A stretch of DNA of 61,564 nucleotides, filler included. It is 3 parts of 3 records of this genome, joined end to end, with 100 filler letters (N's around TTAATTAATTAA, not from the genome) between each part and the next. Parts side by side here need not be neighbours in the genome. Positions count along the whole stretch, not along the records: positions 23,827 to 49,953 come from SRR22947725_2216; 2 more parts are not named here. One strand, 5' to 3'. The translations under genes were made by a program, and so were the position numbers. The notes beneath the pieces were generated by a model. That model worked only from the letters and a program-made list of their open reading frames with translations. It was not told the DNA's origin and did no database searches. Positions 2,244-50,053 of this stretch are shown here, one piece after another (position 1 is the first letter of the stretch; the number at the start of each line of letters is the position of its first letter).

Positions 2244-2990
2244 TTAAATATTAACTTTATTTATGATTTCTTCGCTAATATCAAAATTACCATAAACACC
2301 TTGAACATCTTCACAATTATCAAGTGTATCTAAAAGCTTTAATATTGAGGCAGCTCTTTTTTCGTCATCAACCTTAATATAATTCTCAGGTTGCCAAATT
2401 ATTTCAGCTTGTTCAGGAGAGCCAAGTAGACTTTCTAATTTATCTCTAACATTATTAAATTCATTTAAAGAGGTAATTATTTCATGGCTTATTTCATCAG
2501 AAATAACGTCATCAGCACCAACTTCAATTGCTATTTCTAAGATTTCATCATCATTTTTAATATCTTTTTGATATAAAATATGACCCACATTATTAAACAT
2601 GAAAGATACAGAACCAGTTTCACCTAAATTACCACCATATTTTGTAAAAGAAGATCTGACTTCAGATGCAGTTCTGTTACGATTATCAGTGACAGCGTCT
2701 ACAATTAATGCAATCCCTCCAGGAGCATATCCCTCATATCTTATTTCTTCTAAATTTAGATTTTCTCCAGATTCAGCTTTTTTTATGACTCTTTCAATAT
2801 TATCCTTAGGCATGTTTACTGCTCTACAAGCTGATAAAGCTGACCTTAATCTAGGATTGCTTGATGGATCTGTACCACCTCTTACAGCAACTTGTAATTC
2901 TTTAGTCAAACGGGCAAATTTTTTGGCTCTCCTGGCGTCTTGTGCTCCCTTACGATGCATTATATTTTTAAATTTTGAGTGACCAGCCAT
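2244..2990 (-). CDS. yebC: YebC/PmpR family protein
   Basis: MAGHSKFKNIMHRKG, NPRLR, YEGYAPGG, TDNRNRT; classic yebC-ruvC linkage. Confidence 0.96.
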   Translation of the reverse strand: MAGHSKFKNIMHRKGAQDARRAKKFARLTKELQVAVRGGTDPSSNPRLRSALSACRAVNMPKDNIERVIKKAESGENLNLEEIRYEGYAPGGIALIVDAVTDNRNRTASEVRSSFTKYGGNLGETGSVSFMFNNVGHILYQKDIKNDDEILEIAIEVGADDVISDEISHEIITSLNEFNNVRDKLESLLGSPEQAEIIWQPENYIKVDDEKRAASILKLLDTLDNCEDVQGVYGNFDISEEIINKVNI

Positions 2991-3020
2991 ATAAATTTCT
3001 CCTATTATATTTTTACAAAT

Positions 3021-3836
3021 TTATTCTAAATTAGTTTGCTCTAATTTTCCTCCTATTCTTAGAGGTTTGATTGATTTACTTAAACCACCAATTTCACTCT
3101 CTATAATAACACCGCATAAAGTAGGCTCACCATTAGAAACTTCAAGTCTTGATTTTTTATTTTGAGGAAATAAAAATCTATTTAATGCATCTTTTTTATT
3201 CATCCCTATTATGGAGTTATAATCACCACTCATACCTACATCAGTAATATAAGCAGTACCATTTTCTAAGATCTGATAATCTGCGGTTGGCACATGTGTG
3301 TGCGTCCCAACAACTGCAGTGACCTTCCCGTCAAGAGCGTTTCCTAGAGCCATCTTTTCAGAAGATGCCTCACCATGAATATCAACTAAAGAAAAATCTA
3401 CATTCTTTTTTAACTTTAAATTTTCTAAGATATCAGGGATCTTATCAAAGACATTATCAGTTTTTTGCATAAACAAATTAGTCATTATATTTGCAACTCC
3501 AATTTTTCCTGCATCCAAATCTACTGTTGTCATTCCTAAACCTGGAGTACCTTCAATCATATTTAATGGGCGAAGTAATCTATCATTTTTTGTTATATAT
3601 GATATTATTTCTCTTTTATCCCAAATATGGTTTCCAGTAGTTAATACATCAGCTCCTACACGAAAAAAATCATCGCAAATTGAAGGCGTAACGCCAAATC
3701 CTCCCGCTGAATTCTCAACATTGACTATTATTGCATCTAATTTTAACTTTGTTTTAAGTTCTACAATTTTCTCTTGAGCATAGTTCCTTGCTCTTCTTCC
3801 AACAATATCACCAATAAACAGGACTTTCATAAACAT
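3021..3836 (-). CDS. ymdB: YmdB/TIGR00282 family metallophosphoesterase
   Basis: LFIGDIVG, NVENSAGG, TTGNHIWD, DIHGEASSEK, GTHTHVPTAD, TDVGMSG motifs. Confidence 0.92.
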   Translation of the reverse strand: MFMKVLFIGDIVGRRARNYAQEKIVELKTKLKLDAIIVNVENSAGGFGVTPSICDDFFRVGADVLTTGNHIWDKREIISYITKNDRLLRPLNMIEGTPGLGMTTVDLDAGKIGVANIMTNLFMQKTDNVFDKIPDILENLKLKKNVDFSLVDIHGEASSEKMALGNALDGKVTAVVGTHTHVPTADYQILENGTAYITDVGMSGDYNSIIGMNKKDALNRFLFPQNKKSRLEVSNGEPTLCGVIIESEIGGLSKSIKPLRIGGKLEQTNLE

Positions 3837-3856
3837 CTTCTTTTTTTAGGTTAATT

Positions 3857-4444
3857 TTAATTTACTTTTGATAGTATTTCTTTTTCAGTTACTATGAAAT
3901 CTAACTTTTGGTCATGACTTTCATATGGTATACTTTTAGTTTCTTGTTCACTATAAGCAAGGCCAATAGTAATAAAATTTTTCTGTTTTTTATCAAAATG
4001 TCTTTTTAAGGTTGATATTAATTTATCATAATAACCTGCTCCATATCCAAGTCTATTTAATTTTCTATCAAACATTAACATAGGAACAACAATAACCTGT
4101 GGAAAAATAGTTTTTTTTGTTCGAAGTGGTTCATAGCTTCCTATGTGACTTTTTTGCAGTTTCTCTTTTTTGAACCATTTTTTAAAAACCATTGAATTAC
4201 TATTACAATCAACAACTGGTAGAGCAGTGGTTATTTTGTTAACCTTAAAATATTCAATAAACACCAAAGGAGAAATTTCATTAAAAATAGGATAATATAA
4301 ACCAACCTCTTTTATAGTATTTTCAATGGAAAAAACTCTATCCAAACAAGAATTAATATTTTTTAAAAAAGTATTTTTATCTTCAGTGTCTAGAGAAATT
4401 AATTTTCTTTTTCGTTTAGCAATAATTCTAAGATTATTTTTCAT
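3857..4444 (-). CDS. ygfA: 5-formyltetrahydrofolate cyclo-ligase
   Basis: VVPMLMFD...RLGYGAGYYD and ESHDQKLDFIVTE; directly downstream of 6S RNA. Confidence 0.92.
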   Translation of the reverse strand: MKNNLRIIAKRKRKLISLDTEDKNTFLKNINSCLDRVFSIENTIKEVGLYYPIFNEISPLVFIEYFKVNKITTALPVVDCNSNSMVFKKWFKKEKLQKSHIGSYEPLRTKKTIFPQVIVVPMLMFDRKLNRLGYGAGYYDKLISTLKRHFDKKQKNFITIGLAYSEQETKSIPYESHDQKLDFIVTEKEILSKVN

Positions 4445-4467
4445 TTAAATTACTCTGGAACAAATAA

Positions 4468-4619
4468 CGAAAGCCAAACAATCGTCGGACAAGTTATCCT
4501 ATGTTGCCTGTTAAACAGGTGGGCACCATTTACTTTAACCTCGGCTAAAACAGTGACGGCTCCCTTAGAATACTTATGGCCCCAAGGATTAAAGTTCCTA
4601 ACAAAAAGCTCAGCTTTCG
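4468..4619 (-). ncRNA. ssrS: 6S RNA
   Basis: Conserved zapA-ssrS-ygfA position; GC-richer intergenic stretch whose minus-strand ends pair (CGAAAGCTGAGC ... GTTTGGCTTTCG); about 152 nt rod; contains GGTGCCCACCTG as in alphaproteobacterial 6S RNAs. Confidence 0.88.
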
Positions 4620-4629
4620 ATCTTATAAT

Positions 4630-4968
4630 TTATTTGCTTTCTAATAACTTTGCAACCTTATTCATTCTTTCAGTGGATTTTGCTAGCCAATCCAGAAGTT
4701 CACGTATATGTGGTAAATCTTTATCATCTGAGCTTGTTACTTCGTTACTTATAACATCAACCTTTTCATTTAATTTATCTGCTAAAACCAATGAAGTCAT
4801 TGCTAATAATCTAGTTTCACTTATCCCACTTGATATACTAGAAAGTTCTTCAATTGCTTTGTTAACTTCATTTGAAGCTTTAATAAGTTTGTCTTCTTCA
4901 CCAATTTCACATGTAACTGGATAAATGGTATTATTAATATTAACTTTAATTGTTACTTTATTTGACAT
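4630..4968 (-). CDS. zapA: Cell division protein ZapA
   Basis: VKVNINNTIYPVTCEIGEEDKL...ETRLLAMTSLVLADKL followed by coiled coil. Confidence 0.9.
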   Translation of the reverse strand: MSNKVTIKVNINNTIYPVTCEIGEEDKLIKASNEVNKAIEELSSISSGISETRLLAMTSLVLADKLNEKVDVISNEVTSSDDKDLPHIRELLDWLAKSTERMNKVAKLLESK

Positions 4969-4998
4969 GTAATACTCTAGTTAAACAAGTTCAGATTA

Positions 4999-5223
4999 CT
5001 ATTTGGAACTTCTTAATTTTAATTTTAAGTTTTCCAAACATTCTTTAGCCTCATTAAATTTTTTATTAGCATTAAGCATGTCATCTTTAATAGTTTCCAA
5101 TTTTTGTTTATTAGTTACGCTTTCAGCAATACTTTTCTCTAAACGCTTCATACTATCTTCAAATGCATTTTGAACGCTTTTTATACCTTTAAAATCTAAA
5201 AACAGTTCGTCTCGATCATTCAT
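4999..5223 (-). CDS. Small coiled-coil protein upstream of zapA (ZauP-like by synteny)
   Basis: 74 aa, all helical with heptads; occupies the zauP position of Alphaproteobacteria; sequence itself not recognised. Confidence 0.6.
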   Translation of the reverse strand: MNDRDELFLDFKGIKSVQNAFEDSMKRLEKSIAESVTNKQKLETIKDDMLNANKKFNEAKECLENLKLKLRSSK

Positions 5224-22959: not shown

Positions 22960-23036
22960 TGGTAGGCCTGGAGGGACTTGAACCCCCAACCACTCCGTTA
23001 TGAGCGGAGGGCTCTAACCAGTTGAGCTACAGGCCT
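22960..23036 (-). tRNA. tRNA-Ile2 (CAT anticodon, lysidine type)
   Basis: Minus strand AGGCCTGTAGCTCAACTGGTTAGAGCCCTCCGCTCATAACGGAGTGGTTGGGGGTTCAAGTCCCTCCAGGCCTACCA; full cloverleaf with CCA; downstream of rpoD like ileX; lacks initiator features. Confidence 0.9.
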
Positions 23037-23140: not shown

Positions 23141-23726
23141 TTAATTTTCTAGAAAGGATCTTAGTTTCCTAGATCTTGATGGATGTTTTAATTTTCTTAA
23201 AGCTTTAGCTTCTATTTGTCTAATTCTCTCTCTGGTAACACTAAATTGCTGACCGACTTCTTCAAGTGTATGATCAGTATTCATCCCAATCCCAAAGCGC
23301 ATTCTTAAAACTCTCTCTTCTCTTGGAGTTAAACTAGCTAAAATTCTTGTGGTTGTTTCTCTTAGATTTGCGTGAATTGCTGCTTCAAGAGGCTGAACAG
23401 CCATCTTGTCTTCTATAAAATCTCCTAAATGACTATCATCTTCGTCTCCAACAGGCGTCTCTAAAGAAATTGGTTCTTTAGCTATCTTTAGAACTTTCCT
23501 AACTTTATCAAGTGGCATTGATATTTTTTCAGATAATTCTTCTGGGGTTGGCTCCCTACCAATTTCATGAAGCATTTGTCGTGAAGTTCTAACTAGTTTG
23601 TTTATGGTTTCAATCATATGAACAGGTATTCTTATGGTTCTAGCTTGATCTGCAATGGACCTTGTTATTGCCTGTCTAATCCACCATGTTGCGTATGTTG
23701 AGAATTTATAACCTCTTCTATATTCA
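23141..23726 (-). CDS. rpoD: RNA polymerase sigma factor RpoD (5'-truncated at contig end)
   Basis: [37 protein letters not shown]... and region 4 [17 protein letters not shown]. Confidence 0.97.
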
Positions 23727-23826
23727 NNNNNNNNNNNNNNNNNNNNNNNNNNNNNNNNNNNNNNNNNNNNTTAATTAATTAANNNNNNNNNNNNNNNNNN
23801 NNNNNNNNNNNNNNNNNNNNNNNNNN
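23727..23826. other. Artificial contig linker (N44-TTAATTAATTAA-N44)
   Basis: N runs around a six-frame stop; composition and gene taxonomy change across it. Confidence 0.98.
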
Positions 23827-24309: not shown

Positions 24310-24741
24310 GTGCAAATCATTACAAACATACAACTAAAACAAATTTCTGCTAAAGACAGCTATATCGTGCGCCACCCCGTTTTACGAAAGGGCTTGGCAC
24401 AGAGCAGCTGTGCTTTTGATCGTGATGAAGACACAACAACCATCCACTTAGGCGCTTTTGAAAACAATGCTTTAGTAGGTGTACTAAGCCTCTTACAAAA
24501 CACTGTAGACATTCAACTTAGAGGGATGGCCGTTTTAGAATCCCATCAAGGATTGGGAATTGGTAAAACCATGATTGCTAAAGCGGAAGAAATGGTAAAA
24601 GAATTGAGTGTAAAAAAACTATGGATGAATGCACGCTTGATTGCTGTTCCGTTTTACGAAAGCTGTGGGTATACCAAAGAAGGCGTTTCTTTTGAACTCC
24701 CTTACGGCGCCATGCACTATAAAATGACAAAAACACTATGA
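24310..24741 (+). CDS. GNAT family N-acetyltransferase
   Basis: QLRGMAVLESHQGLGIG; NARLIAVPFYESCGY. Confidence 0.88.
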   Translation: MQIITNIQLKQISAKDSYIVRHPVLRKGLAQSSCAFDRDEDTTTIHLGAFENNALVGVLSLLQNTVDIQLRGMAVLESHQGLGIGKTMIAKAEEMVKELSVKKLWMNARLIAVPFYESCGYTKEGVSFELPYGAMHYKMTKTL

Positions 24742-25439
24742 AAGTAATTTTAATCTTGCTGTTATTTTGCCAAGCGACATTCGCTCAGGTAAACACCATC
24801 CAACTATTGGGCATCGATGAATCGCATCTTGTTGAGCAAAACAATTACAAGTTAACCCAACAAACCGCCAAGGCTTTTGCAGCCATGCAAGAAGCGGCGC
24901 TAGATGATGGTATCGCTATTCAATTGGTTTCTGCCCACCGTTCTTTTGAGCGGCAACAAGGCATTTGGGAACGGAAATTTAATCAGTACACAGCAGATGG
25001 CATGTCAGGAAAACAAGCCATTACTAAAATTTTGGAATACTCTACCATTCCGGGGACCTCACGCCACCACTGGGGAACCGATATTGATATTACAGACGCT
25101 AACGCACCCAAACAAAACAGCCTTTTGGTAACCGAAAAGTTTGATGACAACGGCCCTTTTGCACCCCTACACAAATGGATGCAAGCCAACGCCCACCGTT
25201 TTGGATTTGTTTTGGTTTATACCAATGATGAAAAACGAACTGGCTTTGCCTACGAACCTTGGCATTACAGCTATTTTCCCGAAGCCAAAAGCTGCCTAAC
25301 TGCCTACAGCCCTAGAGAAGCCTTTGCTTTTTTTAAATCGGTTGGCGTGGTTGGGGGTAACTATGTAAACCGTGATTTTTGGGACAGCTACTACACCCGC
25401 TTTGTAAAAGGGATAAATCCGGTGTTAATTGACAATTAG
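24738..25439 (+). CDS. M15B family D-Ala-D-Ala carboxypeptidase (VanY-like), secreted
   Basis: Signal peptide; SAHRSF, SRHHWGTDID, YEPWHY zinc motifs. Confidence 0.9.
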   Translation: MKVILILLLFCQATFAQVNTIQLLGIDESHLVEQNNYKLTQQTAKAFAAMQEAALDDGIAIQLVSAHRSFERQQGIWERKFNQYTADGMSGKQAITKILEYSTIPGTSRHHWGTDIDITDANAPKQNSLLVTEKFDDNGPFAPLHKWMQANAHRFGFVLVYTNDEKRTGFAYEPWHYSYFPEAKSCLTAYSPREAFAFFKSVGVVGGNYVNRDFWDSYYTRFVKGINPVLIDN

Positions 25440-25521
25440 TCGGATGCTGTCTTTAATACTTAATTGGCATTTTATTCAGAGAGGCTAAGATAGACACGCC
25501 TTACAAACCTTATTTAAAATA

Positions 25522-25550
25522 GGTACGCGTCGCAGACGCGCACCAGCGGG
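25522..25550. repeat. GC-rich REP-like hairpin
   Basis: GGTACGCGTC-GCA-GACGCGCACC (10-bp stem with one mismatch, 3-nt loop) followed by AGCGGG, in AT-rich context. Confidence 0.55.
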
Positions 25551-25590
25551 TAGCTATCCCGCAGGGTAGCTATACACATTGTTAGCAACA
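25551..25590 (-). repeat. Truncated attC-like site of cassette 2
   Basis: 6 nt after the stop codon: TGTTGCTAAC-AATGTG-TA-TAGCTACCC-TGC-GGG-A-TAGCTA; right arm cut off by the REP-like hairpin. Confidence 0.6.
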
Positions 25591-25596
25591 GTCTTT

Positions 25597-26487
25597 TTAT
25601 CCTAATTTTTTAATTTTTGATTCTACTGATTGAAGCTGGTTCATTTTAGGAAATAGATTTTTGACGTTTTCTGGCTGATTAAGGGCTGGGTGAACTTCTG
25701 CTCCCTGCTCAATTAAATTTGATAAGAGTCTGATTAAGTTTTTCAATCGTTCAATCTGCTCATTATTATCCCCATCAAAATTTTCGTTGTAGAGGTTTTT
25801 TGCTTCTGCATCAATCATTAAGTTGAGAGCATCTTTTTGTTTCTCCTGGATTTCCTTTAGACTTTCATTTTTAATTTTCAGACTTTTGACGTGTTCTGTG
25901 ATTAATTTTCCTTCTTGTATTTTCTTATAAATAACTGCGGAAGCCCACGCGAGACCTCCAATCAAAGAAACAGCTGCAGTTGAGCCTAAATAGACATCCA
26001 ACCAAATAGAACCATTCTCGACATTGTCAATTCGAACTTGTCCATTTATCTGATCGTTTACAACGGCTTGATTAATTATTTTATGAAACTCAGAAGAGAC
26101 TTTTGATAAGTCGTCAAAGTCAGTAACTGATGGAAACTTTATACTAATACTATCTGGATTTACTTCTCCACCTATTTCCGAAATAGTTGTACTTAAAGCA
26201 GTTACAAGCTTTATTATTTCATCAATTTGGATTTTTAACTGTCTCCCTTCAGTAAAATTTAAACTTAAGCTGTCTTTTGCTGTTGTGAAAATTGCCGAGT
26301 TTCGAATTGCTTGAATTTCATTCTTAAACAGTCCTGTTTCTTCCAATTGGTTAATGGCTTTCCTAAATTGATTTAGTTTGGAAAATTTAGAAGTTGGTTG
26401 TTGATTACCTTGTCGAGGTTCTTCGTATGCAACATTGAGTATTGCTGTAATAGTCGCAAGCTGCTGTTTAAGTTCTTTTATCTTCAT
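25597..26487 (-). CDS. Hypothetical 296-aa cassette protein with a hydrophobic helix and coiled coil
   Basis: Long AT-rich ORF; VENGSIW followed by AAVSLIGGLAWASAVIY; family not recognised. Confidence 0.85.
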   Translation of the reverse strand: MKIKELKQQLATITAILNVAYEEPRQGNQQPTSKFSKLNQFRKAINQLEETGLFKNEIQAIRNSAIFTTAKDSLSLNFTEGRQLKIQIDEIIKLVTALSTTISEIGGEVNPDSISIKFPSVTDFDDLSKVSSEFHKIINQAVVNDQINGQVRIDNVENGSIWLDVYLGSTAAVSLIGGLAWASAVIYKKIQEGKLITEHVKSLKIKNESLKEIQEKQKDALNLMIDAEAKNLYNENFDGDNNEQIERLKNLIRLLSNLIEQGAEVHPALNQPENVKNLFPKMNQLQSVESKIKKLG

Positions 26488-26497
26488 TTATTTCATA

Positions 26498-26638
26498 TTG
26501 TTACTAATGGTCTCGTATAACCGTCAGTTACGGGTTAAAGTGAGCTTACATTTCGGTTTTGTACCTAAGTTGGCAATTCGGCTTGAATTTCCTGTCGGAA
26601 ATTCCGCCGTAATTGCGGTTATACATTGTTGTAAAACG
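26498..26638 (-). repeat. attC-like site of cassette 1
   Basis: Inverse core CGTTTTACAAC (26638-26628); arms GTATAACCG-CAATTACGG and CCGTAACTG-A-CGGTTATAC with one extra base; internal GAATTTCC-GACA-GGAAATTC hairpin; core ATTAGTAACAA (26508-26498). Confidence 0.72.
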
Positions 26639-26642
26639 TTTT

Positions 26643-27245
26643 TTATTTTCCAAATCCGATATTCGGTTTTTCAGGTTTTACACTTTGTTTTAATTCAGCA
26701 TATTTTTGGTCAAACTCCTCTTTCGATATTGCATTGATTGATTTTAACCATTTAAAATTATTCAGTTGACTTTCATAGCTCAAATTTTCATCAACAATTG
26801 CATAATTTTCTTTTAGAAATTCATTTCTTGACTTCATTAATTCAGATAAAAATTGGTCTGTTGCTGATTTATTCGGAATGTTTTTATGTATATAAATATA
26901 ACTGTCATTAGTCAATCGTATTTTCCAAAAATTTTGTCTTGACAATAAATAAATAACTGAAAAGACTGTCCCAATTCCAGCCCAAAAAAGTCCAGCGAAT
27001 TTTTCTCCAGTACTGCCTCGATACAAACTTATTTATATTGCAATAGCAATTAGATAAATAACACCAGCGATAATCAGCAAAGTATGATTAGTCGATTTAT
27101 GGGAAGTTTTTTCTCCATTTAAATTTTCAAACGGAATATCTATTTCATTTCCGTTTCCAAATTTTGAAATATTATAGAACAATTTTGAATCCGTAATTCT
27201 TAATTCACGTTTTACGAAGTTCTTATTCTGCTTTAATTCTTTCAT
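26643..27245 (-). pseudogene. Two-TM membrane protein with SHOCT-like C-terminus, interrupted by an in-frame TAA
   Basis: ORFs 27033-27245 and 26643-27026 are in the same frame: ...GCA ATA TAA ATA AGT TTG TAT CGA...; C-terminal LNNFKWLKSINAISKEEFDQKYAEL. Confidence 0.8.
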
Positions 27246-27263
27246 TTTGTTCGTTTTCAGAAA

Positions 27264-27303
27264 TGTTTTACAACTTGTTTATATCCACATATTGCGTTTA
27301 TAT
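27264..27303 (-). promoter_or_regulatory. attI-like recombination site
   Basis: ATATAAAC-GCAATATGTGG-ATATAAAC-AA-GTTGTAAAACA: GTT core preceded by direct repeats and no hairpin arm, 18 nt before the first cassette ATG. Confidence 0.55.
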
Positions 27304-27532
27304 ATTTTATGATTAGCACACCTGTGATATGCTTGTTTTCAATACTTTACACCTACTACAACGCGTCCTAAGTACAAATAAATGTGCAAGCGTATGCATC
27401 GTCCTAACTCCAAAAAAGTAAAAAAATGAAAGGCGTAGGTTCGTTCAGTCTAAACAATTTTGGGCGTTTGTTTAACGCTAAATTAACAAAAAATCAATAC
27501 AGCACAGCATTGTCATGGCAGTTGGGTTTGTT

Positions 27533-27540
27533 TATCTTTG
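27533..27540 (+). promoter_or_regulatory. Bacteroidota sigma-A -7 element (TATCTTTG) for gpmI
   Basis: Matches TAnnTTTG; 17 nt before ATG 27558. Confidence 0.7.
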
Positions 27541-27557
27541 CAACACAATACAACCAC

Positions 27558-29075
27558 ATGAACAAACGCGTCCTTTTAATGATTTTAGACGGTTGGGGTA
27601 TCTCTCCCGATCCTAAGGTTTCGGCAGTAGTCCAAGCCAATACCCCTTTTATCGACAGCCTTTCTCAAACAGCTGCCAACAATGTCTTGCATACCGACGG
27701 CATGCATGTTGGTCTTCCAGAAGGTCAAATGGGAAATAGCGAAGTAGGTCATGTAAACCTAGGTGCTGGGCGTGTGGTATATCAAGATTTGGCGAAAATC
27801 AATCTGGCAGTAAAAGAAAACACACTCAAAGACGAGCCTGTTTTAAGAGAAGCTTTTGAATATGCCATCAAACAAAATAAAAGCGTACACTTTGTAGGGC
27901 TTGTTTCAGACGGTGGGGTGCATGCGCACATCAACCATGTGGAAGGCTTACTAAAAGCTGCACACGAAGCCAAGGTACCCAAAAGTTATGTACATGCCTT
28001 TTCGGATGGCCGTGATGTAGATCCAAAATCCGGACTTGGTTTTTTAACCAAAGTACAAGACATCTGCTCTAGCCACAACGCACATCTTGCTAGTGTTATT
28101 GGGCGCTACTTTGCCATGGATAGAGACCAACGCTGGGAGCGTGTTAAAAAGGCCTATGATCTACTCATTCACGGAACAGGCACACAAACAGAAAACCTTA
28201 CCGAAGCCATGCAAGCCAACTACGCTGCAGGCACTACTGATGAATTCATTGAACCCCTTGTACTTCCTGAAAATGGAGATTTAAAAAGTGGGCGTATTAA
28301 GGCTGATGACGTTGTCATTTTCTTTAATTTCCGTACCGACCGTGGACGTGAGCTTACCCAAGCCTTAAATCAAGTCGCCTTTCCAGAGCAAGACATGGAG
28401 CCACTTCCTTTGTATTATGTAACACTAACCAACTACGACGAATCTTTTAAAGGGGTTAAAGTGGTTTATGACAAAGAAAATATTTCAGAAACTCTAGGAG
28501 AGGTAATCGCTAAAGCAGGGAAAAAACAAATCCGTATTGCGGAAACCGAAAAATACCCACACGTTACCTTTTTCTTTAATGGTGGACGGGAAGCTCCTTT
28601 TGAGGGCGAAGAACGCCTTTTGTGTCCTTCACCAAAAGTAGCGACATACGACTTGCAACCCGAAATGAGTGCCTATGACATTCGTGATGCTATAGTGCCC
28701 AAGTTACAACAAAAAGCCGCTGATTTTGTTTGTTTAAACTTCGCCAATCCCGATATGGTTGGACATACTGGTGATATGGCTGCTGCCATAAAGGCCTGCG
28801 AGGTCGTGGATGGTTGTGCTAAAGCTGTAGTTTCCGCTGCACAAGAAAGTGACTACACGGTAATTATTATTGCAGACCATGGGAATTGTGATACAATGAT
28901 TAATCCAGATGGAAGCCCAAACACCGCCCATACCACCAATTTGGTGCCTGTCTATTTGGTTGATAAAGATATTGATTCTGTAAGCAAAGGTGCGCTATGT
29001 GATATTGCTCCTACTGTATTGGAACTTATGGGCGTGGAACAGCCTGCAGCGATGACAGCGAAATCACTACTTTAG
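27558..29075 (+). CDS. gpmI: 2,3-bisphosphoglycerate-independent phosphoglycerate mutase
   Basis: LMILDGWG, GQMGNSEVGH, DGRD, AETEKYPHVT, DMVGHTG, ADHGN; start reassigned to 27558. Confidence 0.97.
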   Translation: MNKRVLLMILDGWGISPDPKVSAVVQANTPFIDSLSQTAANNVLHTDGMHVGLPEGQMGNSEVGHVNLGAGRVVYQDLAKINLAVKENTLKDEPVLREAFEYAIKQNKSVHFVGLVSDGGVHAHINHVEGLLKAAHEAKVPKSYVHAFSDGRDVDPKSGLGFLTKVQDICSSHNAHLASVIGRYFAMDRDQRWERVKKAYDLLIHGTGTQTENLTEAMQANYAAGTTDEFIEPLVLPENGDLKSGRIKADDVVIFFNFRTDRGRELTQALNQVAFPEQDMEPLPLYYVTLTNYDESFKGVKVVYDKENISETLGEVIAKAGKKQIRIAETEKYPHVTFFFNGGREAPFEGEERLLCPSPKVATYDLQPEMSAYDIRDAIVPKLQQKAADFVCLNFANPDMVGHTGDMAAAIKACEVVDGCAKAVVSAAQESDYTVIIIADHGNCDTMINPDGSPNTAHTTNLVPVYLVDKDIDSVSKGALCDIAPTVLELMGVEQPAAMTAKSLL

Positions 29076-49953: not shown

Positions 49954-50053
49954 NNNNNNNNNNNNNNNNNNNNNNNNNNNNNNNNNNNNNNNNNNNNTTA
50001 ATTAATTAANNNNNNNNNNNNNNNNNNNNNNNNNNNNNNNNNNNNNNNNNNNN
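49954..50053. other. Artificial contig linker (N44-TTAATTAATTAA-N44)
   Basis: Identical to the linker at 23727-23826. Confidence 0.98.

What the first reader, a model, noticed from the sequence alone, without database searches (positions are those of the whole stretch)
25522..27303. Integron-like gene-cassette array in a Flavobacteriaceae-like contig, with non-canonical att sites and no integrase
Seen: an AT-rich insert between vanY-like and gpmI (illustrative hand counts: 19/60 GC at 25741-25800 vs 31/60 at 28081-28140). It holds two co-oriented minus-strand genes with no room for promoters. Cassette 1 (27273-26508) starts at G|TTGTAAAACA and ends in a hairpin opening with CGTTTTACAAC, the complement of that start. 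Cassette 2 (26507-~25551) starts at A|TTAGTAACA and ends with TGTTGCTAAC, again complementary to its own start and not to its neighbour's. Established: this self-matching of core and inverse core around an invariant AAC/GTT, with ORFs flush against the sites, is the signature of integron cassettes that excise as circles. Inference: this is a Bacteroidota cassette-capture system. Its sites deviate from GTTRRRY and from the canonical spacer and bulge geometry, so standard attC models could miss it. I cannot tell whether it has already been described.
Basis: partly seen in the sequence, partly recalled or inferred. Interest (0 to 1): 0.88.

Follow-up and report, generated by a model that had tools for sequence, protein, structure and literature searches.

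The report
Integron-type gene cassettes in a flavobacterium
Two small genes between vanY and gpmI are mobile integron-type cassettes, a stray outpost of large cassette arrays that most Flavobacteriaceae genomes sampled carry beside an unusual recombinase, in a group thought to have almost no integrons.

Summary
Window 25536-27269 is missing from the closest relative. A second relative has 4.1 kb of other genes there, and homology resumes at the same base (CAAC|TTG, 27269/27270). Seven more distant relatives have vanY next to gpmI.

Both genes follow the cassette rule: the bases after the upstream GTT complement the gene's own downstream ...AAC box (8/9 and 7/9; cross controls 3/9).

The hairpins belong to a family of mostly about 135 nt (range about 55-220) with attC architecture. 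My model finds it in 126 of 151 sampled Flavobacteriaceae genomes, in single-strand arrays. Across 128 neighbouring sites the cassette rule holds (mean 6.75/9, against 3.2/9 in controls).

Five of five arrays whose head I examined start with a XerA/IntI-like tyrosine recombinase that lacks the IntI-specific insertion. No recombinase is in the window contig, and none of this type was found in the closest relative.

The window copy is decaying. It has a nonsense codon in cassette 1, a truncated second site and a private G-to-A change in one core. The sites are therefore fairly canonical, not exotic.

I found no published description in seven literature searches. IntegronFinder could not be run.

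The parts
27270..27327 (-). Short attC-like docking site ('attC0'). It has a conserved core of about 40 nt (27270-27310) that ends in ...ATATAAACAA|GTT. The GTT at 27274-27272 is the junction to cassette 1.
   Evidence: Homology with L002 and L003 resumes exactly at 27270. The 40-nt core recurs at unrelated loci in G124, G244 and G003. In G124 it is a complete 63-nt CACAAC...GTTGTG hairpin. It resembles the junctions just downstream of array recombinases. Models R1 and R2 do not detect it.
26643..27245 (-). Cassette 1 gene: a 200-codon predicted membrane protein of unknown function, broken by an in-frame TAA at 27033-27035.
   Evidence: There are 63 homologs, nearly all 200-201 aa and uninterrupted; the best is 94% identical and has Gln at codon 71. 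Contigs of runs X3 and X9 read CAA there, and X2 shares the TAA (place 27035). No Pfam family. One faint PADLOC match, E 0.006.
26500..26636 (-). attC1, the 137-nt recombination hairpin of cassette 1. It starts with the R'' box TTTTACAAC, then AAT, then the L'' arm GTATAACCG. It ends with the L' arm CGGTTATAC, then GAGACC, then the R' box ATTAGTAAC.
   Evidence: Top hit of model R1 in 12 kb with exactly these ends, 11.6 bits, E 0.1. Third hit of R2 in the whole window, 11.3 bits, E 1.5. Both ends are near-identical to G002:C13:311-447, whose R' is GTTACCT. The same 5' part follows the first cassette of the G143 array. Fold. Place 26508 reads G on the minus strand in X2, X3, X7 and X9.
25597..26487 (-). 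Cassette 2 gene: a 296-aa protein of unknown function that I read by eye as coiled coil plus one membrane helix.
   Evidence: No Pfam or PADLOC family. 243 homologs across Bacteroidota and Ignavibacteria, all named hypothetical. Found in only 1 of 151 family genomes, and broken there. Homologs lie in cassettes with full sites.
25535..25589 (-). attC2, truncated. It keeps the R'' box TTGCTAAC, AAT, the L'' arm and the loop, but has no L' arm and no R' box.
   Evidence: Top hit of R2 in the whole window, 14.5 bits, E 0.18, with the 3' model positions unmatched. Compare the full 67-nt site L057:9244-9310.
25522..25544 (-). Intrinsic-terminator-like hairpin followed by TATTTTAAAT. It closes the minus-strand unit and is shared with relatives.
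   Evidence: The same motif is in L002, L003 (twice) and L004 and at two further G003 loci.
25536..27269 (.). The block that is absent from the closest relative.
   Evidence: blastn: window 24652-25535 matches L002 5915-6798, and window 27270-32998 matches L002 6868-12606. The 69 nt between them in L002 read as the first codons of another gene.
24738..25439 (+). Left flank: VanY-type D-Ala-D-Ala carboxypeptidase gene.
   Evidence: PF02557, E 4.8e-39.
27558..29075 (+). Right flank: gpmI (cofactor-independent phosphoglycerate mutase). A TATCTTTG box lies about 20 nt before the ATG.
   Evidence: PF01676 and PF06415. I placed the start by comparison with the 505-aa ORF of L003. Reading the box as a promoter is from recall.

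Best explanation
Window 25536-27269 is a short integron-type cassette array with no recombinase gene nearby (a CALIN-like cluster). It sits at a short attC-like site upstream of gpmI.

Each unit is one promoterless gene followed by a folded recombination site. The site runs R'' (...AAC), L'', variable loop, L', R' (GTT...). Units are joined at the GTT core. As a result, the bases after each GTT belong to the next gene and pair with that gene's own downstream AAC box. That is the footprint of cassettes that excise and insert as circles through site-by-site recombination.

The sites belong to a family that is widespread in Flavobacteriaceae. There it forms long single-strand arrays headed by a XerA/IntI-like tyrosine recombinase that lacks the IntI-specific insertion. 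That enzyme is the likely catalyst (inferred).

The window copy looks like a satellite that is decaying. Cassette 1 has a nonsense codon, the second site has lost its 3' half, and one core reads ATT in this sequence only.

Shown here: presence/absence and replacement at one exact base, the family of sites, the circular-permutation signature, and the recombinase at array heads.

Inferred: catalysis by that recombinase, the exact cleavage position within GTT, single-strand folding during recombination, and read-through expression from upstream.
For: Polymorphism at one base: L002 lacks the block, L003 has 4.1 kb of other minus-strand genes there, and all three resume at CAAC|TTGTTTATAT. Ten loci aligned on both flanks. 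In seven of them (L007-L012, L014) vanY and gpmI are 128-232 nt apart, where the window has 2128-2308.

Cassette rule in the window: 8/9 and 7/9, against 3/9 and 3/9 for cross pairings. The L003 cassettes show the same match by eye.

Family: the bottom strands fold as R box, unpaired spacer and long L stem. Model R1 found two sites it was not trained on. R2 hits 126 of 151 sampled genomes. It gives 146 hits in 221 kb from 8 genomes, and all hits within a locus lie on one strand. AAC is at the expected place in 142 of 146 and GTT in 112 of 146. Paired cells are 94.8% against 73.3% in shuffles, and double changes are 488 against 144, with 0 of 500 shuffles reaching either.

Cassette rule in arrays: against the own next site the mean is 6.75/9, with 94 of 128 at 7 or more. 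For the same hairpin it is 3.23 (6 of 128), for the site after next 3.17 (4 of 117), and for random pairings 3.15 (61 of 2560).

Same site or cassette in other contexts.

Recombinase: it is at the head of 5 of 5 arrays whose head I examined (G143, G146, G015, G017, G152), and in each of these genomes it is the best TIGR02249 hit. It is present at E<=1e-40 in 106 of 151 genomes. By my cross-tabulation, 101 genomes have both sites and recombinase, 25 have sites only, 5 have the recombinase only and 20 have neither.

Independent assemblies: an X2 contig spans 24484-26534 and another spans 26604-28198. An X3 contig spans 26612-27423.
Against: The two window sites score weakly on my models (E 0.1 to 1.5) and would not be called on score alone.

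No tyrosine recombinase is in the ORFs of 90 aa or more that I scanned in the window from 23141 to its end. No array-type recombinase was found in the closest relative G002, but that is a 1.7-Mb MAG.

The second site is truncated, so cassette 2 could not excise on its own now.

No circle or excision product was seen. The only contig that skips the region (X3, 25510 to 27385) rests on 30 letters on one side and removes more than the block.

No contig spans 26535-26603, inside attC1, so the adjacency of the two cassettes rests on the window assembly.

Alignment A5 was fitted to the model, which favours pairing. IntegronFinder's own attC model could not be run.
Confidence: 0.88

Rival explanations
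1. The hairpins are ordinary intergenic palindromic repeats (REP/BIME- or MITE-like, perhaps terminators) that spread on their own. The variable vanY-gpmI gap then reflects ordinary indels or homologous replacement, not cassette recombination.
For: The elements are very abundant, often lie at contig ends and sit after stop codons. A separate terminator-like hairpin family also recurs. The window sites score weakly on the models.
Against: A repeat that spreads by itself would not make the bases after each GTT complement the next site rather than its own hairpin: 94 of 128 against 6 of 128. All sites in an array share one strand. Insert boundaries in three genomes fall on the same base. A recombinase heads the arrays.
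Confidence: 0.05
2. These are classical integron cassettes moved by a true IntI (with the extra domain) that is encoded elsewhere or in other bacteria. The XerA-like gene at array heads is a bystander.
For: The site architecture and AAC/GTT cores are those of attC. CALINs and single cassettes far from any integrase are known (Loot et al. preprint, section 27 read).
Against: No TIGR02249 match over the cut-off in 9 of 9 genomes searched: G002, G003, G244 and G124 and G143, G146, G015, G017 and G152. None of the 14 control genomes has a match over the cut-off either, so the search had no positive control. In the five array-bearing genomes the best hit is always the array-head gene. That gene family is present in 106 of 151 genomes.
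Confidence: 0.05
3. The block is an assembly artefact. The window is stitched from contigs of a bin, and the assembler joined unrelated pieces through repeated hairpins.
For: The window is three contigs joined by N-TTAATTAATTAA-N linkers, and the first contig belongs to a different organism from the second. Depth rises sharply at 26518-26671 in X2, and contigs break inside attC1.
Against: The block lies 1.7 kb inside contig 2. Both outer junctions are spanned by contigs of independent runs X2 and X3. Both junctions obey the cassette rule.
Confidence: 0.02

Closest known systems
CALIN (cluster of attC sites lacking an integron integrase; Cury et al. 2016, seen only as a search listing and abstract; Neron et al. 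2022, section 3.1 read)
   Same: Two to three attC-type sites with co-oriented promoterless ORFs and no integrase nearby. It is small and decaying, as proposed for CALINs.
   Different: The sites were found with my own model, not with IntegronFinder's. The host family is one where Neron et al. report no complete integron. In relatives, the parent arrays are headed by a recombinase that is not IntI in the strict sense.
Sedentary chromosomal integrons such as the Vibrio superintegron with its VCR sites (recalled; abstracts of PMC11023631 and PMC11551772 seen in listings)
   Same: The family's large arrays have dozens of cassettes and fairly uniform sites: 114 of 146 sites are 130-139 nt. The genes are mostly of unknown function and all lie on one strand.
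   Different: The recombinase lacks the IntI insertion and carries about 100 extra N-terminal residues. In the five arrays examined it is co-oriented with the cassettes. The window itself holds only a two-cassette remnant.
Inverted integrons of Treponema (PMC3607928, listing and abstract only; the orientation is recalled)
   Same: The recombinase gene reads in the same direction as the cassettes.
   Different: Treponema IntI is, from recall, a true IntI. The phylum differs. Not tested here.
Archaeal integrons (Ghaly et al. 2022, PMC9668308, passages read)
   Same: Cassette arrays outside the usual phyla. The best NCBIfam model for the array-head enzyme here is the XerA/'integron integrase' model NF040815.
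   Different: The paper states that archaeal IntIs carry the IntI-specific additional domain. The Flavobacteriaceae enzyme does not.
Cassette insertion outside att sites (attG, SALIN; Loot et al. preprint 10.1101/2022.09.11.507474, abstract and section 27 read)
   Same: Small cassette clusters far from any integron, possibly seeded by insertion into a genomic site.
   Different: Here the docking point is itself an attC-like hairpin shared by three relatives, not a bare GTT.

Membership tests
Integron, strict sense | IntI tyrosine recombinase carrying the IntI-specific additional domain around patch III | tested here: not met
   There is no recombinase in the window contig. Array-head enzymes in relatives score 179-203 bits on TIGR02249 (cut-off 265), in two stretches. 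Where IntI4 (2a3v) has 58 residues (177-234), they have 17 (277-293). They align without a break to XerA.
Integron, strict sense | attC sites: imperfect palindromes of roughly 57-141 nt (range recalled) with R''(..AAC)-L''-loop-L'-R'(GTT..) | tested here: met
   Folds. AAC is in place in 142 of 146 and GTT in 112 of 146, and 114 of 146 sites are 130-139 nt long. Pairing and covariation. attC1 in the window is 137 nt. attC2 is truncated.
Integron, strict sense | Cassettes joined at the core, so that each cassette's first bases complement its own attC R'' box | tested here: met
   (94 of 128 against 6 of 128). Window 8/9 and 7/9.
Integron, strict sense | attI site next to the integrase gene, and a Pc promoter | tested here: inconclusive
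   Junctions of the form ...|GTTGT... lie 60-140 nt after the recombinase stop in four arrays but share little sequence. No promoter was identified. The sigma-70 scan is no better than shuffles, 9 against 8.4, and does not model Bacteroidota promoters.
Integron, strict sense | Sites recognised by IntegronFinder's attC covariance model | not testable with these tools
   The model is not available here. Rfam has no matching family at its gathering scores.
CALIN | At least two attC sites and no integron integrase nearby | tested here: met
   attC0, attC1 and truncated attC2 lie within 1.8 kb. No PF00589 hit in the ORFs of 90 aa or more scanned from 23141 to the window's end. Caveat: the sites were called with my own models and by comparison.
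REP/BIME-type extragenic repeats | Palindromic repeats whose sequence is independent of the neighbouring gene | tested here: not met
   The outer box of each site co-varies with the start of its own gene unit.
Xer/dif modules (pdif-type; features recalled) | Modules bounded by 28-bp XerC/XerD sites in alternating orientation | not tested
   The sites here are 55-220-nt hairpins in one orientation. No dif-type 11-6-11 site was searched for.

The most novel reading that the evidence does not exclude
Flavobacteriaceae carry a widespread second lineage of integron that standard tools overlook. It consists of long attC-type cassette arrays run by a XerA-like tyrosine recombinase. That enzyme lacks the insertion held to be essential for integron recombination and has its own N-terminal extension of about 100 residues. 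The window shows one of its satellite arrays. If so, folded-site cassette capture does not need the IntI domain, and a major marine bacterial family has a large, unexplored cassette gene pool.
Probability: 0.5. Interest if true: 0.9.

Novelty: new variant of a known kind. Interest (0 to 1): 0.8.

Why it matters
Integron surveys of complete genomes report almost nothing in Bacteroidetes: earlier only In0 elements, and later one complete integron in Salinibacter (PMC9024848, section 3.1). A 2024 preprint counts Bacteroidota among clades previously found without integrons. Two other papers list Bacteroidota among phyla where integrons have been detected.

Here an attC-type family turns up in 126 of 151 sampled Flavobacteriaceae genomes. 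It carries the cassette signature and has its own recombinase clade at the array heads.

If this holds, three things follow:
- It opens a large pool of mobile accessory genes in abundant marine bacteria.
- It gives a natural test of whether the IntI insertion is needed for hairpin-site recombination.
- It shows that integrase-anchored detection misses such systems.

For the window itself, it explains an AT-rich two-gene insert as a decaying cassette outpost.

Tried and rejected
- G001, offered as the nearest genome, matches only the first stitched contig, so relatives had to be found through VanY.
- A crude AAC...GTT plus stem scan and two regex scans were no better than shuffles, and I dropped them.
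- A MAFFT alignment of eight sites of unequal length misplaced the 3' ends.
I did not use it.
- An ATGTATTGTTGTTG stretch in L003 that looked like a site lies in the signal peptide of a plus-strand lipoprotein gene that L006 also has. I rejected it.
- Neither cassette protein has a relative in the 84 loci fetched by then. PADLOC gave only a faint match.
- The cassette-2 gene was found in only 1 of 151 family genomes, so that search could not test boundaries.
- In 9 of 13 metagenome loci with a cassette-2 homolog, R2 found no convincing site. These are the more distant homologs or short contigs.
- Parts of the window without contig cover in runs X7 and X9, and the short-sided joints, are not used as evidence.
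- No structure or complex prediction was run.
Full report
**What is at the coordinates**

The region between a VanY-type gene (24738-25439, +) and gpmI (27558-29075, +) is AT-rich. GC is 0.28-0.35, against 0.40-0.47 in the flanks.

It holds two minus-strand ORFs. One is 25597-26487 (296 aa). The other is 26643-27245 (200 codons) and is interrupted by an in-frame TAA at 27033-27035. Neither has a Pfam family.

- Cassette 1: the start GTTGTAAAACATTT and the sequence just after its stop, AAACGTTTTACAAC, are 13/14 complementary (pair I7).
- Cassette 2: it starts (A)TTAGTAACA and ends TGTTGCTAAC.

One such repeat in 2 kb is not rare, since one search lists 88 inverted pairs. The case therefore rests on position and on comparison with other genomes.

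**The window is stitched**

N-TTAATTAATTAA-N linkers at 23727-23826 and 49954-50053 join three contigs. The first contig is 98-99% identical to genome G001. The second, which holds the finding, has no close match there. Its relatives are Flavobacteriaceae MAGs found through VanY. The finding lies 1.7 kb inside contig 2.

**Presence, absence and replacement at one base**

The closest relative is L002 (VanY 95% identical). It aligns to the window up to 25535 and again from 27270, with only 69 nt between. Those 69 nt read as the first codons of another gene.

L003 (VanY 65% identical) has 4.1 kb of different, mostly minus-strand genes at the same place. They include a kinase-like gene, a ClpP/SppA-like gene and an HTH gene. 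Homology again resumes at window 27270. All three read ...CAAC|TTGTTTATAT...

Ten loci aligned on both flanks. In seven of them (L007-L012, L014) vanY and gpmI are 128-232 nt apart, where the window has 2128-2308. L006 has 612 nt that hold a plus-strand lipoprotein gene. The block is therefore not core genome.

**The hairpins belong to a family with attC architecture**

I read the inter-gene DNA of L003 and of a co-oriented 17-gene stretch in G244 (L057), found through the junction motif. Both showed sites of one pattern on the coding strand. The 5' end reads RYYYAAC, then AAT, then GT(G)TATA. The 3' end reads TATAC, then 3-6 nt, then ACC, then GTTRRRY.

Their bottom strands fold as a 4-7-bp R box, an unpaired spacer and a long L stem with bulges.

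A covariance model built from five sites (R1) found two further sites it had not seen. Re-alignment of nine sites gave model R2.

With filters off, the window sites score as follows:
- R1 ranks window 26500-26636 (minus) first of 15 hits in 12 kb, with exactly the ends I had drawn by eye (11.6 bits, E 0.1).
- R2 ranks 25535-25589 (minus) first and 26500-26636 third of 19 hits in the whole window (14.5 and 11.3 bits; E 0.18 and 1.5).

These scores are weak, for visible reasons. The first site has ATT where the family has GTT. The second stops after its loop and runs into a terminator-like hairpin at 25544-25522 that relatives share.

Direct comparison is stronger. G002:C13:311-447 is near-identical to the window's 137-nt site at both ends. 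It has a canonical GTTACCT core and follows a different gene. The first site of the G143 array begins with the same 30 nt.

**The family is widespread and forms arrays**

R2 finds matches at E<=1e-4 in 126 of 151 genomes sampled from the family of G002. Many lie at contig ends. No Rfam family matches at gathering scores.

In twelve stretches from eight genomes (221 kb), R2 gives 146 hits at E<=0.011. Every hit within a stretch is on one strand, and hits are about 0.5-2 kb apart.

AAC sits at the expected place in 142 of 146 and GTT in 112 of 146. Of the 146 sites, 114 are 130-139 nt long.

On the model-fitted alignment, 94.8% of cells pair, against 73.3% in shuffles. There are 488 double changes against 144, and 0 of 500 shuffles reach either value. 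Sliding the partner columns drops pairing to 22-31%. The fit to the model favours pairing, so this counts as support, not proof.

**The cassette signature**

In an integron array the bases after each GTT belong to the next cassette and pair with that cassette's own R'' box. I tested this on 128 neighbouring site pairs, drawn from the 141 sites where both cores could be placed.

| Pairing tested (9 nt after GTT against 9 nt before AAC) | Mean matches of 9 | Pairs with 7 or more |
|---|---|---|
| Next site (own cassette) | 6.75 | 94 of 128 |
| Same hairpin | 3.23 | 6 of 128 |
| Site after next | 3.17 | 4 of 117 |
| Random | 3.15 | 61 of 2560 |

The window's two cassettes score 8/9 and 7/9, with cross pairings at 3/9 and 3/9. 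Even the usual mismatch is the same as in the arrays (AT against AC at the eighth base).

This result is hard to reconcile with self-spreading repeats. It is what recombination between sites at the GTT core produces.

**The same cassette elsewhere**

The cassette-2 protein has 243 homologs across Bacteroidota and Ignavibacteria. All are named hypothetical, and many lie on very short contigs. Only 1 of 151 family genomes has it, and there it is broken.

Of 13 metagenome loci with a homolog, 4 have a strong R2 site directly after the gene (42-53 bits). One of these also has a site just before the gene.

L089 is only 46% identical in protein. It starts GTTAGCAACAAT and has the R'' box CTGTTGCTAAC. 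The window has ATTAGTAACAAT and CTGTTGCTAAC. The unit boundaries are therefore conserved while the gene has diverged.

The cassette-1 protein has 63 homologs, nearly all 200-201 aa and unbroken. The best is 94% identical and has Gln where the window has TAA.

**Independent assemblies**

Ten runs hold half or more of the sampled words of 24800-28000. I laid contigs of four runs from four studies.
- In X2, one contig spans 24484-26534 and another spans 26604-28198.
- In X3, a contig spans 26612-27423.
- Both outer junctions are thus confirmed outside the source sample. No contig crosses 26535-26603, inside the repeated site.
- At 27035, X3 and X9 read CAA (Gln), while X2 shares the TAA. The nonsense allele is therefore a real polymorphism.
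- One X3 contig skips 25510 to 27385. It rests on 30 letters on one side, and I do not use it.

**The recombinase**

The window contig has no tyrosine recombinase among the ORFs of 90 aa or more that I scanned. G002, G003, G244 and G124 have no TIGR02249 match over the cut-off.

At the upstream end of the large arrays there is a 357-381-aa tyrosine recombinase (PF00589 plus the SAM_4 domain) reading the same way as the cassettes. I saw it in G143, G146, G015 and G017, and in G152 about 4 kb before the first site.

Its best family model is NF040815, named 'XerA / integron integrase', at 216-232 bits (cut-off 220). TIGR02249 gives 179-203 bits, below its cut-off of 265, and in two stretches.

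Against solved structures it aligns without a break to XerA (4a8e at 134 bits; 5hxy). Against IntI4 (2a3v) it aligns in two pieces. Where IntI4 has 58 residues (177-234) it has 17 (277-293). The RHSFATH, GH and IYTH motifs are present.

In all five array-bearing genomes it is the best TIGR02249 hit, and nothing passes the cut-off. The control genomes hold no true IntI, so the sensitivity of that search was not shown.

The family is found at E<=1e-40 in 106 of 151 sampled genomes but not in G002. By my cross-tabulation, 101 genomes have both sites and recombinase, 25 have sites only, 5 have the recombinase only and 20 have neither. Genome size and completeness confound this.

From the listed rows, I count by hand at least 20 genomes in which a recombinase lies within about 22 kb of a site on the same contig. 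In a few of these (G004, G011, G044, G066, G115), a form that matches only from residue about 100 onward is divergent from the sites.

**The junction site**

The 40 nt at 27270-27310 recur at unrelated loci. They occur in G124, in G244 (inside an array) and at two further G003 contigs. In G124 they form a complete 63-nt CACAAC...GTTGTG hairpin.

The junctions right after the array recombinases have the same ...|GTTGT... form. The G146 array's first cassette starts GTTGTAAAACATTT, the same as window cassette 1.

I read 27270-27327 as a short, partly degenerate site that serves as the docking point. Whether it is better called attC or attI cannot be settled here.

**Mechanism, with what is shown and what is inferred**

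Shown:
- Gene units are bounded at GTT cores.
- The units are circularly permuted in the integron manner.
- Content at one docking site differs among close relatives.
- The sites form a structured, covarying family.
- A dedicated recombinase clade sits at array heads.

Inferred:
- That enzyme cuts and joins at the core.
- The sites act as folded single strands.
- Cassettes pass through circles.
- The window's cassettes are read from upstream and stop at the shared terminator.

The window copy looks inactive now. It has no recombinase in reach, a truncated last site and a nonsense allele.

**Comparison with what is known**

The system works like an integron, and the window's block fits the definition of a CALIN. 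Strict membership fails on the defining IntI insertion, so I file the system as a variant.

What the literature I read says:
- IntegronFinder 2.0 reports that only In0 elements were seen earlier in Bacteroidetes, and that one complete integron was then found in Salinibacter (section 3.1 read).
- A Flavobacterium genome paper reports no integron structures by IntegronFinder (passages read).
- A tyrosine-recombinase survey notes that the integron insertion is 'not fully conserved' in its integron-like subgroup (passage read).
- Two papers list Bacteroidota among phyla where integrons have been detected (passages read).

Seven full-text searches found no description of cassette arrays in Flavobacteriaceae. 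Supplementary tables were closed and may list CALINs there. Subscription journals are not covered.

**Verdict**

The window's block on its own is a small decaying cassette cluster. Its value is that it led to a widespread, apparently undescribed integron-like system.

Noticed in passing
window 23727-23826 and 49954-50053: Runs of N flanking TTAATTAATTAA. The window is three contigs joined by an artificial six-frame-stop linker. Contig 1 (1-23726, GC about 0.27-0.42 where profiled) is 98-99% identical to G001. Contig 2 is unrelated to G001 and is close to a different Flavobacteriaceae MAG, so the bin looks mixed.
   Followed up: partly
window 23141-23617 (-), 22963-23036 (-), 4467-4619 (-): A sigma-70 gene that keeps only regions 3 and 4 and is cut off by the end of contig 1. 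Also a tRNA and a 6S RNA (Rfam).
   Followed up: no
L003 2681-6220: At the same docking site, the relative carries cassettes with a kinase-like gene plus a 137-aa partner, a ClpP/SppA-like protease plus an 85-aa partner, and an HTH gene. These could be defence or stress modules. The protease and kinase labels come from reading motifs, not from a family scan.
   Followed up: no
window 25513-25546; L003 about 2735 and 2945; L004; G003:C75:233-266 and G003:C64:21271-21304; L087 about 800-870: A second repeated element: a GC-rich terminator-like hairpin followed by TATTTTAAA. It recurs at several loci and genomes, separately from the attC-type family.
   Followed up: partly
L068 (G002:C17) 191-257, 2960-4033, about 4080-4150, 4195-5169: A tRNA, a 357-aa phage-type integrase and a repeat of the tRNA 3' part together outline an integrated island. 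Directly after it lies a single esterase cassette with a strong site (56 bits by R2, 41 bits by R1). Its start, GTTATAC, nearly matches its own R'' box.
   Followed up: partly
L087 877-1401: A copy of the cassette-2 gene, 98% identical from residue 28 on, lies in a different upstream context next to the terminator-like hairpin. It suggests a truncated or rearranged copy in another sample.
   Followed up: no
rows for G004, G011, G044, G066 and G115: A second form of the recombinase matches only from about residue 100 onward, in ORFs of 284-392 aa. It lies divergent from nearby sites, which is the classical integron orientation. The full-length form is co-oriented with its array.
   Followed up: no
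window 27330-27480: This stretch is conserved only in the window, L002 and L003. It has no ORF, holds a direct repeat (CGTCCTAAG / CGTCCTAAC) and has GTTAGGA- and GTTGTAG-like cores on the minus strand. It may be the remains of older cassettes.
   Followed up: no
G146:C3:708692-709792; also G136, G071, G048, G051 and G140 rows: Several array-head recombinase genes carry one in-frame stop. They may be pseudogenes, or the stop may be read through or recoded.
   Followed up: no
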